DNA of 64,000 nt from the human T2T-CHM13v2.0 reference genome, Homo sapiens. The notes under the pieces are model-generated. The model made no database searches. It was given only the letters and a program-made list of their open reading frames with translations, and was not told the DNA's origin. The number at the start of each line of letters is the position of its first letter. The first letter of the stretch is position 1. The stretch lies in the NCBI RefSeq assembly GCF_009914755.1, contig NC_060926.1; one strand, given 5' to 3'. A program made the position numbers and the translations under genes. This document shows positions 37,123 through 46,967 of this stretch, one piece after another.

Positions 37123-39465
37123 CAAGGCCGGTTCAACATACACAAATCAATAAATGTAATCCAGCATATAAACAGAACCAAAGACAAAAACCACATGATT
37201 ATCTCAATAGATGCAGAAAAGGCCTTTGACAAAATTCAACAACCTTCATGCTAAAAACTCTCAATAAATTAGGTATTGATGGGACGTATCTCAAAATAAT
37301 AAGAGCTACCTATGACAAACCCACAGCCAATATCATACTGAATGGACAAAAACTGGAAGCATTCCCTTTGAAAACGGGCACAAGACAGGGATGCCCTCTC
37401 TCACCACTCCTATTCAACATAGTGTTGGAAGGTTCTGGCCAGGGCAATCAGGCAGGAGAAGGAAATAAAGGGTATTCAATTAGGAAAAGAGGAAGTCAAA
37501 TTGTCCCTGTTTGCAGATGACATGATTGTATATCTAGAAAAACCCATCGTCTCAGCTCCAAATCTCCTTAAGCTGATAAGCAACTTCAGCAAAGTCTCAG
37601 GATACAAAATCAATGTGCAAAAACCACAAGCATTCTTATACACCAATAACAGACAAACAGAGAGCCAAATCATGAGTGAACTCCCATTCACAATTGCTTC
37701 AAAGAGAATAAAATACCTAGGAATCCAACTTACAAGGGACATGAAGGACCTCTTCAAGGAGAACTACAAACCACTGCTCGATGAAATAAAAGAGGATACA
37801 AACAAATGGAAGAACATTAAGAATCAATATCGTGAAAATGGCCATACTGCCCAAGGTAATTTCTAGATTCAATGCCATCCCCATCAAGCTACCAATGACT
37901 TTCTTCACAGAATTGGAAAAAACTACTTTAAAGTTCATATGGAACCAAAAAAGAGCCCGCATCGCCAAGTCAATCCTAAGCCAAAAGAACAAAGCTGGAG
38001 GCATCACACTACCTGACTTCCAACTATACTACAAGGCTACAGTAACCAAAACAGCATGGTACTGGTACCAAAACAGAGATATAGACAAATGGAACAGAAC
38101 AGAGCCCTCAGAAATAATGCTGCATATCTACAACTATCTGATCTTTGACAAACCTGACAAAAACAAGCAATGGGGAAAGGATTCCCTATTGAATAAATGG
38201 TGCTGGGAAAACTGGCTAGCCATATGCAGAAAGCTGAAACTGGATCCCTTCCTTACAACTTATACAAAAATTAATTCAAGATGGGGATTAAAGACTTCAA
38301 TATGTTAGACCTAAAACCATAAAAACCCTAGAAGAAAACCTAGGCAATACCATTCAGGACATAGGCATGGGCAAGAGCTTCATGTCTAAAACACCAAAAG
38401 CAATGGCAACAAAAGCCAAAATTGACAAATGGGATCTAATTAAACTAAAGAGCTTCTGCACAGCAAAAGAAACTACCATCAGAGTGAACAGGCAACCTAC
38501 AGAATGGGAGAAAATTTTTGCAATCTACTCATCTGACAAAGGGCTAATATACAGAATCTACAAAGAACTCAAACAAATTTACAAGAAAAAAACAAACAAC
38601 CCCATCAAAAAGTGGGTGAAGGATATGAACAGACACTTCTCAAAAGAAGACATTTATGCAGCCAAAAAACACATGAAAAAATGCTTATCATCACTGGCCA
38701 TCAGAGAAATGCAAATCAAAACCACAATGAGATACCATCTCACACCAGTTAGAATGGCGATCATTAAAAAGTCAGGAAACAACAGGTGCTGGAGAGGATG
38801 TGGAGAAATAAGAACATTTTTACACTATTGGTGGGACTGTAACCTAGTTCAACCATTGTAGAAGTCAGTGTGGCGATTCCTCAGATATCTAGAACTAGAA
38901 ATACCATTTGACCCAGCCATCCCATTACTGGGGATATACTCAAAGGATTATAAATCATGCTGCTATAAAGACACATATGCACATGTATGTTTATTGCAGC
39001 ACTATTCACAATAGCAAAGACTTGGAACCAACCTAAATGTCCAACAACGATAGACTGGATTAAGAAAATGTGACACATATACACCATGGAATACTATGCA
39101 GCCATAAAAAATGATGAGTTCATGTCCTTTGTAGGGACATGGATGAAACTGGAAACCATCATTCTCAGCAAACTATCGCAAGGACAAAAAACCAAACACC
39201 GCATGTTCTCGCTCACAGGTGGGAATTGAATAATGAGAACACATGGACACAGGAAGGGGAACATCACACACCGGGGACTCTTCTGGGGTTGGGGGAGGGG
39301 GAGGGATAGCATTAGGAGATATACCTAATGCTAAATGACGAGTTAATGGGTGCAGCACACCAACATGGCACATGTATACATATGTAACAAACCTGCACGT
39401 TGTGCACATGCATCCTAAAACTTAAAGTATAATAATAATAAAATAAAAAAGAGAAAAAAAAGAAA
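37123..39465 (+). mobile_element. 5'-truncated L1PA3-like element (~2.3 kb; ORF2 RT/C-terminal part, 3'UTR, A-tail)
   Basis: ORF2 fragments incl. [24 protein letters not shown] and CWRGCGE; 3'UTR diagnostics GCTAAATGACGAG and CCTAAAACTTAAAG; ~17-bp deletion at ~37818. Confidence 0.97.
37248..38861 (+). pseudogene. Frameshifted L1 ORF2p (reverse transcriptase) remnant
   Basis: Successive ORFs 37248, 37501, 37832 and 38367 give consecutive ORF2p segments broken by frameshifts; non-functional. Confidence 0.93.
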
Positions 39466-40254
39466 AAATAGAAGAAAGGAAATTAAAAAAGAGTGTCCAT
39501 AAAAGAAATCAATGTAAATAAAATCTGGTTAATTAAAAAGACCAAATAATTGGATAAATTCCTGTCTATATTGATGTAGAATAACAGACAACACCAAATT
39601 CGTAATATTATGAATAAGATGGAAGATAATACCACAGATATTTCTGGCATTTAAAGAAAGAAAAGGAATACTATGAATAGATTTATGACAATAAAGTCAA
39701 GAATATATATTAAAATCTGCAAATCCTTCAAAGATAAGAACTAACAAACCTCCCTCAAGATAGAGATAAGGGAAATAGTTTATGAAAGAAATTTAATTTG
39801 TAATTAAATTCTTTCAATAAGAAAATGGCAAGCCCATGTAGCTTAAAAAGTACATTCTTCCCAATATCTAAGTAAAAATAAATATCAATTCTACACAAAA
39901 CTGAAGACAACAATTCCCAACTCATTTCATAAAGTTAGTTTCTCTGATCTCAAAACCAGACACTGACGTTATAAGAAAATTGTGGACCAATATCCCTCAT
40001 GAATATACACAAAAACATCATCTGCAAAACAATACCAAATTGAGTTCATTAAATATAGAAAGTATTATAAATCATAACCAAGGAAGGTTTATCCCAAGGA
40101 TATGAGATTGACTCCATATCTACAAATGAATCCTTGATATTTATATCTATATATTCATATATATAATCATATAATCATCTCCATATAGGCAGGGAAATAG
40201 TTTGATAACATTAACATATATTCATAATAAATAATAAAAATTAGAAATTAAAGC

Positions 40255-40447
40255 AAGAATAAGCATCTTTTTCCCTGTAAAGTGCTAGATTATCAATACT
40301 TAAGGCTTTATGGGTTACAGCTGTCTCTTGCAGATTATCTTCTTCTCCTTAAAAAATAAAAGACCTTTAGAAATATAGCTTGCAGATCATATACACACAA
40401 TACATGAATCAGATTTGGCTTGCAGGTTTTAGTTTGCCAACATCTGC
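40255..40447. mobile_element. MER58-like hAT element
   Basis: TTTTTCCCTGTAAAGTGCTAGAT...AGGCTTTATGGG...CAGATTTGGCTTGCAGGTTTTAGTTTGCCAACATCTG. Confidence 0.65.
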
Positions 40448-45278: not shown

Positions 45279-45358
45279 AAAAATTAAATCAAAATAGATC
45301 TTAAAGCTAAATGTAAAATAAATTTTAAGACTTTTGCAAGATAATACAGATGCTTCTT

Positions 45359-46967
45359 TTATATATATATATTATATATATATAGATTATACTTTAAGTT
45401 CTACGGTACATGTGCACAACAGGCAGGTTTGTTACATATGTATACATGTGCTATGTTGGTGTGCTGCACCCATTAAACTCATCATTTACGTTAGGTATAT
45501 CTCCTAATGCTATCCCTCCCACCTCTCCACACCCTAAAACAGGCCCTGGTGTGTGTTATTCCCCCTCCTGTGTCCAAGTGTTCTCATTGTTCAATTCCCA
45601 CCTATGAGTGAGAATATGCGGTGTTTGGTTTTTTGTTCTTGGGATAGTTTGTAGAGAATGATGGTTTCCAGCTTCATCCATGTCCCTACAAAGGACATGA
45701 ACTCATCATTTTTTACAGCTGCATAGTATTCCATGGTGTATATGTGCCACATTTTCTTAATCCAGTCTACCGTTGCTGGACATTTGGGTTGGATCCAAGT
45801 CTTTGCTATTGTGAATAGTGCCGCAATAAACATACGTGTGCATATGTGTCTTTATAGCAGCATGATTTATAATCCTTTAGGTATATCCCCAGTAATGGGA
45901 TGGCTGGGTCAAATGGTATTTCTAGTTCTAGATATCTGAGGAATCGCCACACTGACTTCCACAATGGTTGAACTAGTTTACAGTCCCACCAATAGTGTAA
46001 AAGTGTTCCTATTTCTCCACATCCTCTCCAGCACCTGTTGTTTCCTGACTTTTTAATGATCACCATTCTAACTGGTGTGAGATGGTATCTCATTGTGGTT
46101 TTGATTTGCATTTCTCTGATGGCCAGTGATGATGAGCATTTTTTCATGTGTCTGTTGGCTGCATAAATGTCTTCTTTTGAGAAGTGTCTGTTCATATCCT
46201 TCACCCACTTTTTGATGGGGTTGTTTGTTTTTTTCTTGTAAATTTGTTTGAGTTCTTTGTAGATTCTGGATATTATCCCTTTGTCAGATGAGCAGATTGC
46301 AAAAATTTTCTCCCATTCTGTAGGTTGCCTGTTCACTCTGATGGTAGTTTCTTTTGCTGTGCAGAAGCTCTTTAGTTTAATTAGATCCCATTTGTCAATT
46401 TTGGCTTTTGTTGCCATTGCTTTTGGTGTTTTAGACATGAAGTCCTTGCTCATGCCTATGTCCTGAATGGTATTGCCTAGGTTTTCTTCTAGGGTTTTTA
46501 TGGTTTTAGGTCTAACATATTTAAGTCTTTAATCCATCTTGAATTAATTTTTGTATAAGATGTAAGGAAGGGATCCAGTTTCAGCTTTCTGCATATGGGT
46601 AACCAGTTTTCCCAGCACCATTTGTTGAATAGGGAATCCTTTCCCCATTTCTTGTTTTTGTCAGGTTTGTCAGGTTTGTCAAAGATCAGATAGTTGTAGA
46701 TGTGTCGTATTATTTCTGAGGGCTCTGTTCTGTTCCATTTGTCTATATCTCTGTTTTGGTACCAGTACCATGCTGTTTGATTACTGTCGCCTTGTAGTAT
46801 AGTTTGAAGTCAGGTAGCGTGATGCCTCTAGCTCTGTTCTTTTGGCTTAGGATTGACTTGGCAATGTGGGCTCTTTTTTGGTTCCATATGAACTTTAAAG
46901 TAGTTTTTTCCAATTCTGTGAAGAAAGTCATTGGTTGCTTGATGGGGATGGCATTGAATCTATAAAT
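45359..46967 (-). mobile_element. 5'-truncated L1PA4-like element (~1.6 kb) with 14-bp TSD
   Basis: Minus-strand ORF2 C-terminus (ORF 45806-46453); 3' diagnostics GTAAATGATGAG and TAGAACTTAAAG; TSD TACAGATGCTTCTT at 45345-45358 and 46968-46981. Confidence 0.97.

What the first reader, a model, noticed from the sequence alone, without database searches (positions are those of the whole stretch)
37123..46967. Two inverted L1s of different subfamily share private mutations: gene-conversion tract or candidate recurrent ~6-kb inversion
Seen: L1 copy A (+, 37123-39465) and copy B (-, 45359-46967) face tail-to-tail about 5.9 kb apart. Their 3' ends differ at subfamily-type positions (A: GCTAAATGACGAG, CCTAAAACTT; B: GTAAATGATGAG, TAGAACTT). 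Over ~900 bp of ORF2 both nevertheless carry the same departures from the L1PA consensus as I recall it: GACAAATGG (38084 / 46735), AATATGTTAGACC with a 2-bp insertion (38299 / 46509), ACACTATTGG (38822 / 45989), CAGATATCTAG (38882 / 45928), CTGGGGATATA (38928 / 45882), and GACACATATGC with a 2-bp insertion (38970 / 45840). Established: inverted repeats drive NAHR inversions and exchange sequence by non-allelic gene conversion. Inference: these independently inserted L1s have exchanged sequence, so the spacer may be, or may have been, invertible. Copy B's TSD is intact and the host L1MC is colinear across it, so the orientation shown is the ancestral one.
Basis: partly seen in the sequence, partly recalled or inferred. 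Interest (0 to 1): 0.8.

Follow-up and report, generated by a model that had tools for sequence, protein, structure and literature searches.

The report
Old gene conversion between neighbouring L1s
Two dead L1 retrotransposon fragments lying head-away-from-head 5.9 kb apart on human chromosome 2 once copied about 700 bases from one to the other, a well-known kind of repeat-to-repeat exchange, and nothing here shows that the DNA between them has ever flipped.

Summary
A (37123-39465, +) and B (45359-46967, -) are independent 5'-truncated L1PA insertions, tail to tail and 5,893 bp apart.

- **Private variants:** The v4+v5 form occurs 2 times against 12,139 for the common form. The v2 insertion occurs 2 times. 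The v6 insertion occurs 6 times, and the four other carriers share nothing else.
- **Not private:** v1 (82 copies) and v3 (a minor lineage state).
- **Divergence:** A-B differences are 2.5% inside 38298-38983 and 7.3% outside (p = 1e-5).
- **Decay:** B's own private mutations drop to 0.65% in the tract against 3.1% in its flanks (p = 0.0003). A's do not drop.

Best reading: an old non-allelic gene conversion of about 680-760 bp, most likely A to B, with a 3-bp unconverted patch. The phenomenon is known for nearby Alu elements, and L1 gene conversion has been raised in print.

The inversion idea is unsupported. B's 14-bp target-site duplication is intact, no reciprocal swap is visible, and no inversion call was found. 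The architecture does resemble known L1-flanked inversions. Low to moderate interest.

The parts
37123..39465 (+). L1 copy A. It is a 5'-truncated L1PA 3' fragment of 2,343 bp comprising the ORF2 C-terminal half, the 3' UTR and an A-rich tail. It is the likely donor.
   Evidence: Sequence read. RVT_1 (PF00078) scores E = 7.5e-09 and 36 bits against a cut-off of 29.6 on 37423-37863. Unlinked genomic copies are 93-96% identical. Private-mutation density is 1.6% in the flanks.
45359..46967 (-). L1 copy B. It is a 5'-truncated L1PA 3' fragment of 1,609 bp from an older-looking lineage. Its tail has decayed to a TA-rich run. It is the likely acceptor.
   Evidence: Sequence read. Its 3' 455 bp is at best 93% identical to unlinked copies, and A is not among the 41 listed matches. 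Private-mutation density is 3.1% in the flanks.
46968..46981 (-). 5' target-site duplication of B (AAGAAGCATCTGTA).
   Evidence: A perfect 14/14 match to 45345-45358.
45345..45358 (-). 3' target-site duplication of B.
38298..38976 (+). Secure conversion tract in A, in the ORF2 C-terminal region. It carries the pair-private variants v2, v4, v5 and v6. The outer bounds are 38220-38983.
   Evidence: Shared rare sites are 38299, 38885, 38886, 38933 and 38975, plus 38227. There are 17 differences in 686 bp, against 65 in 885 bp outside.
45844..46522 (-). The same tract in B, the stretch that was overwritten.
   Evidence: Coordinates are paired. B-private events number 5/764 in the tract and 25/807 in the flanks (p = 0.0003).
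38666..38668 (+). Unconverted patch inside the tract, matching B 46152-46154. A reads AAA and B reads CAG, each keeping the state linked to its own 3'-end type.
   Evidence: At 38666, C goes with B-like 3' ends (mean score 4.0) and A with A-like ends (1.74).
39466..45358 (.). The 5,893-bp spacer between the two 3' ends. This is the segment that a crossover between A and B would invert.
   Evidence: Coordinates. No evidence of inversion was found.

Best explanation
A and B are two independent L1PA insertions of slightly different lineage and age. B looks older. After both were in place, a break in or near B's ORF2-derived stretch was repaired using the inverted neighbour A, 6-8 kb away on the same chromosome or sister chromatid, as template. 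The outcome was a non-crossover, that is, non-allelic gene conversion.

This copied about 680-760 bp of A into B (A 38298-38976 into B 46522-45844). The copied stretch included mutations that A had acquired since its own insertion. A 3-bp patch (38666-38668) escaped. That implies either patchy mismatch repair of the heteroduplex or two adjacent events. Both copies have since added a few private changes, so the event is old, at roughly half of A's age.

**Shown:** the shared pair-private variants, the bounded low-divergence tract and B's local deficit of private mutations.

**Inferred:** the direction A to B, the repair mechanism and the dating.

No function is implied. Both copies are dead fragments in a gene desert.

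The confidence given is for gene conversion between A and B with A as donor. Conversion in either direction I put at about 0.9.
For: 1. **Independent origin.** The 5' truncation points differ. B has its own perfect 14-bp TSD. Outside the tract, each copy holds the state linked to its own 3'-end type at 38119, 38122 and 38168. B's 3' end is nearest to other copies at 93%, and A is absent from the 41 listed matches.
2. **Pair-private variants.** v4+v5 occurs in 2 places genome-wide, against 12,139 for the common form. The v2 21-mer occurs in 2 places. The v6 18-mer occurs in 6 places, and the other 4 carry none of the other variants. Among 57 unlinked relatives, v2, v4, v5 and v6 appear in 0.
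3. **Clustering.** There are 6 shared rare sites in 38220-38983 and 0 in 807 bp of flanks (p = 0.013). The chance expectation is 0.13.
4. **Divergence.** A-B differences are 17/686 in the tract and 65/885 outside (p = 1e-5). No 686-bp window as poor in differences appeared in more than 1 of 3,000 permutations. The longest identical run is 149 bp (p = 0.019).
5. **Non-reciprocity and direction.**
   - B-private events are 5/764 in the tract and 25/807 in the flanks (p = 0.0003). A-private events are 7/764 and 13/807 (p = 0.26).
   - B's tract/flank ratio of 0.21 is below all 34 unlinked controls, whose minimum is 0.28.
   - A-private plus shared gives 13 against 12.3 expected. B-private plus shared gives 11 against 23.7 expected (P = 0.003).
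   - At three lineage-linked sites in the tract, B carries A-type states. 38301 T is carried by 3/28 A-like and 0/19 B-like copies. 38827 A has 6 carriers with a mean B-like 3' score of 1.33. 38865 T scores 1.78, against 4.53 for the alternative state.
6. **Internal control.** Two other L1PA fragments in the window share 1 of 34 rare states with A or B.
7. **Precedent.** Conversion between TE copies is reported to be elevated within 10 kb (Fawcett & Innan, PMC6598467, passage read, citing Aleshin & Zhi 2010).
Against: - **Identity alone is not exceptional.** In the tract, A-B is 97.51%, while B's best unlinked partner reaches 97.50%. Of 990 unlinked pairs, 21 are at least as similar.
- **Direction is not settled.** Unlinked copies also show fewer private events in the tract (density ratio 0.85). 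When the shared sites are counted as B's own, B's ratio is 0.42, and 6 of 34 controls are as low. At 38564 both copies carry the state linked to B-like 3' ends.
- **The tract is not clean.** The 38666/38668 patch is unconverted. The left edge is fuzzy: 38227 C has 438 copies genome-wide, and 38087 A, with 82 copies, lies beyond a clearly unconverted stretch.
- **The comparison sets are biased.** They are the 28 and 29 top-scoring unlinked matches, not random samples.
- **No outgroup.** No ape orthologue could be examined, so the pre-conversion state was never seen.
Confidence: 0.78

Rival explanations
1. The same mechanism in the opposite direction. B was the donor and A the acceptor, so the shared variants were B's own post-insertion mutations.
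For: Both copies carry the state at 38564 that is linked to B-like 3' ends. With the shared sites counted as B's own, B's tract/flank ratio of 0.42 is matched or undercut by 6 of 34 controls.
Against: B-private plus shared gives 11 against 23.7 expected from B's flank rate (P = 0.003). By my arithmetic, the expectation is about 20 after scaling by the control ratio of 0.85. 38301 T, 38827 A and 38865 T are linked to A-like lineages and are rare or absent in B-like copies. A shows no significant private-mutation deficit in the tract (p = 0.26).
Confidence: 0.12
2. The exchange is a by-product of repeated NAHR crossovers. On this view the ~6-8 kb segment between A and B has inverted, possibly more than once, and may still be polymorphic.
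For: The architecture fits known cases. In the preprint of Porubsky et al. (10.1101/2021.12.20.472354, passages read), 22 balanced inversions are flanked by inverted L1 pairs. Of those pairs, 21/22 are more than 90% identical, and the median inversion size is 5.6 kb. Lee et al. 2008 report 21 L1-mediated inversions between human and chimpanzee. The 1,019-genome preprint lists 8 L1 pairs among 45 repeat-flanked inversions. The conversion shows that A and B have paired at least once.
Against: B's TSDs match perfectly, so the elements are not chimeric in this haplotype. No stretch has A and B carrying each other's lineage states, as two crossovers at different points would leave. B's higher private-mutation load appears on both sides of the tract. 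No inversion row at these coordinates was found in the held part of the HGSVC3 supplement (file cut). Conversion needs no crossover.
Confidence: 0.07
3. There was no DNA-level exchange. Either both copies descend from one rare source lineage that already carried the variants, or B was made by reverse-transcriptase template switching onto a read-through transcript of A.
For: Retrotransposition of rare lineages and chimeric L1 insertions are known in general (recalled, not tested here).
Against: The haplotype exists in only two places in 3.1 Gb, and they lie 7 kb apart. A source-lineage origin predicts uniform post-insertion decay along B, yet B's private density is 0.65% in the tract and 3.1% outside. 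B's sequence on both sides of the tract is unlike A, so two switches would be needed.
Confidence: 0.02
4. Chance parallel mutation at hypermutable sites.
For: v6 (an AT insertion in an ACATATG context) arose independently at 4 other places. v1, v3 and 38227 C recur in many copies.
Against: Two identical 2-bp insertions, a GG>AT dinucleotide change and a T>G change would all have to coincide within 680 bp. The expectation is 0.13 shared rare sites against 6 observed (P = 5e-9). v4+v5 occurs in 2 of about 12,141 copies.
Confidence: 0.01

Closest known systems
Non-allelic (interlocus) gene conversion between nearby transposable-element copies, best documented for Alu (Aleshin & Zhi 2010, as cited in PMC6598467; review PMC8230782 seen only in the listing)
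   Same: Two independently inserted copies less than 10 kb apart share post-insertion mutations over a bounded tract of a few hundred bases. The exchange is non-reciprocal and runs from a younger to an older copy.
   Different: Here the partners are L1 ORF2-derived fragments in inverted orientation, not Alus. The tract of about 700 bp is longer than a whole Alu. This is a single case, not a genome-wide statistic.
L1 gene conversion as discussed since Burton et al. 1991 (Mol Biol Evol 8:609). I saw only the reference-list entry in PMC5640379 and did not read the paper.
   Same: It concerns replacement of part of a resident L1 by the sequence of another L1.
   Different: I could not read that paper, so the comparison is by title only.
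Retrotransposon recombination-mediated inversion (Lee et al. 2008, PMC2603318) and L1-flanked balanced inversion polymorphisms (Porubsky et al. preprint 10.1101/2021.12.20.472354)
   Same: An inverted L1PA pair more than 90% identical flanks a spacer of about 6 kb. The reported median size for L1-flanked inversions is 5.6 kb.
   Different: Those cases have chimeric elements with mismatched TSDs and two orientations. Here B's TSDs match and only one orientation was seen.

Membership tests
LINE-1 (L1PA) retrotransposon insertion | ORF2 reverse-transcriptase homology | tested here: met
   RVT_1 PF00078 scores E = 7.5e-09 and 36 bits (cut-off 29.6) on A 37423-37863. B aligns to A's ORF2 3' part and UTR at 94.3%.
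LINE-1 (L1PA) retrotransposon insertion | Thousands of dispersed homologous copies | tested here: met
   There were 6,192 first-look candidates for the 721-bp query. A 57-bp L1 pattern has 12,139 exact places.
LINE-1 (L1PA) retrotransposon insertion | Target-site duplication flanking the element and its 3' A-rich tail | tested here: met
   B has a perfect 14-bp TSD. For A only an imperfect 17-column match was found, and it lies 19 bp from the 5' end, so A's TSD is inconclusive. A has an A-rich tail, while B's tail is TA-rich.
   No Dfam or Repbase consensus was available. I showed only that A-like and B-like unlinked copies differ in majority state at 39243, 39273, 39277, 39331, 39339 and 39418, and that 38119, 38122, 38168, 38666 and 38668 are linked to the 3'-end type.
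Non-allelic gene conversion tract | Shared derived variants absent from other family members | tested here: met
   v2 and v4+v5 are found only in A and B genome-wide.
Non-allelic gene conversion tract | A bounded stretch of reduced divergence between otherwise more divergent paralogues | tested here: met
   Divergence is 2.48% in the tract and 7.34% outside (p = 1e-5). The window permutation gives p = 0.0003.
Non-allelic gene conversion tract | Non-reciprocal: the acceptor loses its own private mutations in the tract | tested here: met
   B-private events are 5/764 in the tract and 25/807 in the flanks (p = 0.0003). This ratio is below all 34 controls.
Non-allelic gene conversion tract | An orthologue in an outgroup shows the unconverted state | not testable with these tools
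   No primate genomes other than this assembly are held.
NAHR / retrotransposon-mediated inversion | Inverted homologous repeats at both ends | tested here: met
NAHR / retrotransposon-mediated inversion | Chimeric flanking elements with mismatched TSDs, or swapped lineage segments | tested here: not met
   B's TSDs match 14/14. No swapped segments were found.
NAHR / retrotransposon-mediated inversion | The alternative orientation is seen in another haplotype or species | not testable with these tools
   Only one haplotype is held. The HGSVC3 supplement search found no row, and that file was cut when stored. The supplements of the Porubsky preprint are closed, and the Cell version (PMC9563103) is not held.

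The most novel reading that the evidence does not exclude
The A/B pair is an active recombination partner pair. On this reading the ~6-8 kb segment between the tracts is, or recently was, an L1-mediated inversion that toggles in humans or differs among great apes, and the conversion tract is the footprint of that pairing.
Probability: 0.06. Interest if true: 0.45.

Novelty: new member of a known kind. Interest (0 to 1): 0.3.

Why it matters
This is a clean case of ectopic conversion between two old L1 fragments that can be checked against the whole genome.

- **For L1 dating and classification.** It shows that L1 'age' and subfamily calls based on divergence can be locally wrong. B looks young over 700 bp.
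- **For recombination between diverged repeats.** Inverted L1 pairs at about 94% identity and 6 kb spacing do pair in the germ line.
- **For method.** The test used here could be scaled into a survey of L1-L1 conversion against distance and orientation. It combines exact-pattern counts of pair-private variants in a T2T genome with private-mutation density inside and outside the tract.

The locus itself is a gene desert with no annotated function, so there is no direct biological consequence.

Tried and rejected
- **L1MC colinearity across B.** The right flank (46982-47420) hits a repeat of about 215 bp at 80-85% identity. In 3 comparator loci, B's left flank found no match next to that homology (0 of 3). 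The claim is therefore unconfirmed, not disproved.
- **A's TSD.** Only an imperfect, displaced candidate was found.
- **Known inversion at the locus.**
  - The HGSVC3 supplement was searched for five T2T coordinate prefixes. The three hits were unrelated numbers.
  - Porubsky 2022 (PMC9563103) is not held, and the supplements of its preprint are closed.
  - hg38 coordinates were not derivable here, so hg38 call sets were not searched.
- **Identity as a test.** Identity alone proved weak. B's best unlinked partner is as close as A in the tract.
- **Other L1PA fragments in the window.** C (44278-44786) and the fragment at 5626-5853 were tested for conversion. They share 1 of 34 rare states with A or B, so they are not involved.
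- **Literature search for 'L1 gene conversion'.** One paper holds the phrase, and only in its reference list.
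Full report
**What is there.**
- Copy A (37123-39465, + strand, 2,343 bp) and copy B (45359-46967, - strand, 1,609 bp) are 5'-truncated 3' fragments of primate L1.
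- A's 5' part scores RVT_1 above Pfam's cut-off (E = 7.5e-09).
- The two 3' ends face each other across 5,893 bp.
- B is flanked by a perfect 14-bp target-site duplication, AAGAAGCATCTGTA, at 46968-46981 and 45345-45358.
- For A only an imperfect and displaced candidate TSD was found.
- A and B align at 94.3% over 1,589 columns.
- Identity is uneven. It is 86.5-91% in 200-bp windows near 37956-38150 and 39150-39430, and 95.5-98.5% between about 38150 and 38950.

**Are the shared variants private?** The whole T2T genome that holds the window could be searched.
- With A's 38280-39000 as query, B is the best non-self match (1,206 bits). It is followed by unlinked copies at 1,165 bits or less. There were 6,192 candidates, of which 40 were scored.
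- I aligned A and B with two sets of unlinked copies. The first set is the 28 unlinked loci from that search. The second is the 29 unlinked loci closest to B's 3' end (best 93%, with A not among the 41 matches).
- v2, v4, v5 and v6 occur in 0 of these 57 copies.

| Variant | Change and place | Exact-pattern places genome-wide |
|---|---|---|
| v4+v5, variant form | GG>AT at 38885-6; T>G at 38933 | 2 (A and B only) |
| v4+v5, common form | same pattern | 12,139 |
| v2 (21-mer) | 2-bp insertion plus A>T at 38298-38301 | 2 (A and B only) |
| v6 (18-mer) | AT insertion at 38975-6 | 6 (A, B and 4 unlinked) |
| v1 | 38087 | 82 |
| extra shared state | 38227 C | 438 |

- The four unlinked v6 carriers hold none of the other variants.
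- v3 (38827) is a minor lineage state, in 6/28 A-like and 0/24 B-like copies.

**The tract.**
- I called a state 'rare' when at most 5% of the 57 unlinked copies carry it.
- There are six shared rare sites, at 38227, 38299, 38885, 38886, 38933 and 38975. All fall in 38220-38983 and none in the 807 bp of flanks (p = 0.013).
- The chance expectation is 0.13 (P of six or more = 5e-9).
- A-B differences are 17/686 (2.48%) in 38298-38983 and 65/885 (7.34%) outside. The left flank is 5.25% and the right flank 9.4% (Fisher p = 1e-5).
- A 686-bp window this poor in differences arose in 1 of 3,000 permutations. The longest identical run is 149 bp (p = 0.019).
- At 38666/38668 each copy keeps the state linked to its own 3'-end type. 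The tract is therefore patchy, or there were two events.
- Left of 38220, B holds older-type states (38119, 38122, 38168) and a private 9-bp duplication. That stretch was not converted. The shared 38087 A beyond it is either a coincidence or a separate short patch.

**A caution.** Identity alone does not make the case.
- In the tract A-B is 97.51%, B's best unlinked partner reaches 97.50%, and 21 of 990 unlinked pairs are at least as similar.
- This is because B is unusually close to the common sequence there, which is itself informative.
- B-private events are 5/764 in the tract and 25/807 in the flanks (p = 0.0003).
- That ratio of 0.21 is lower than in all 34 unlinked full-coverage controls, whose overall ratio is 0.85 and minimum 0.28.
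- A shows no such drop (7/764 against 13/807, p = 0.26).

**Direction.**
- If the shared sites were A's own earlier mutations, A's total in the tract is 13 against 12.3 expected from its flanks.
- If they were B's, B's total is 11 against 23.7 expected (P = 0.003). By my arithmetic, the expectation is about 20 after scaling by the control ratio of 0.85.
- Three lineage-linked states inside the tract are A-type in both copies:

| Site and state | Evidence that it is A-type |
|---|---|
| 38301 T | 3/28 A-like and 0/19 B-like copies carry it |
| 38827 A | 6 carriers, mean B-like 3' score 1.33 |
| 38865 T | mean score 1.78, against 4.53 for the alternative state |

- Against this, 38564 A is the state linked to B-like ends. 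With shared sites included, B's ratio of 0.42 is matched by 6 of 34 controls.
- I favour A to B at roughly 3:1 to 6:1, and do not regard it as settled.

**Age (inference).** After conversion A gained about 7 rare changes in the tract and B about 5, against about 13 for A's whole lifetime there. That places the event at about half of A's age. With recalled primate substitution rates, this is several million years ago or more. No calibration was run here.

**Mechanism.**
- The pattern is the standard signature of non-allelic gene conversion. A break in one repeat is repaired from a nearby paralogue without crossover.
- For TE copies this is documented mainly for Alu, with elevated rates within 10 kb (PMC6598467, passages read).
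- L1 gene conversion has been raised in print since 1991. I saw only the reference entry.

**Inversion.**
- A crossover between A and B would invert about 6-8 kb and make both elements chimeric with mismatched TSDs. This is the logic of Lee et al. 2008 (PMC2603318).
- B's TSDs match.
- No segment has A and B carrying each other's lineage states.
- B's heavier private load lies on both sides of the tract.
- So this haplotype is in the ancestral orientation and shows no footprint of a double crossover.
- The architecture does resemble known cases. In the Porubsky et al. preprint, 22 balanced inversions are flanked by inverted L1 pairs. Of those pairs, 21/22 are more than 90% identical, and the median inversion size is 5.6 kb. 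The 1,019-genome preprint lists 8 L1 pairs.
- I could not check this locus in their tables. The preprint supplements are closed and the Cell version is not held. The held part of the HGSVC3 supplement has no row at these coordinates (file cut).
- The inversion idea therefore remains an untested possibility with a low prior.

**Controls and side checks.**
- Two other L1PA fragments in the window share only 1 of 34 rare states with A or B. They are a twin-primed one at 44278-44786 and one at 5626-5853.
B's right flank belongs to a repeat of about 215 bp. In 3 of 3 comparator loci nothing next to that repeat matched B's left flank.

**Verdict.** The gene-conversion reading is strongly supported, and the inversion reading is not. 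This is a new example of a known process in a gene desert. It is useful as a worked case and as a template for a genome-wide survey, but it would not surprise a specialist.

Noticed in passing
window 44278-44786: A third L1PA 3' fragment lies inside the spacer and has a twin-priming layout. 44424-44786 (+) matches A positions 1949-2311 at 91.5%. 44278-44423 (-) matches A positions 1820-1966 at 93%. The two parts overlap by 18 L1 bases at the junction. It shares 1 of 25 rare states with B and none with A.
   Followed up: partly
window 46673-46681: B carries a private 9-bp tandem duplication, reading GACAAACCT twice. It is absent from A and from all 42 unlinked copies covering the site.
   Followed up: partly
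window 45359-45400: B's tail is a TA-rich run rather than poly-A, so the original A-tail has apparently decayed into a TA microsatellite.
   Followed up: no
window 47003-47216: B's right flank is a repeat of about 215 bp. It had 1,877 first-look candidates in the genome at 80-85% identity. The family was not identified. B's left flank did not continue it in 3 comparator loci.
   Followed up: partly
window 5626-5853 and 10173-10996: Two further L1 pieces lie on the - strand. One is an L1PA 3' end, 92% identical to A's last 227 bp. The other is an older L1 stretch, 76% identical to A positions 1099-1938.
   Followed up: no
window 37088-37122: A's only TSD candidate is an imperfect 17-column match to 39471-39487. 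It sits 19 bp upstream of the L1 5' end, which leaves about 19 bp of unexplained sequence at the 5' junction.
   Followed up: no
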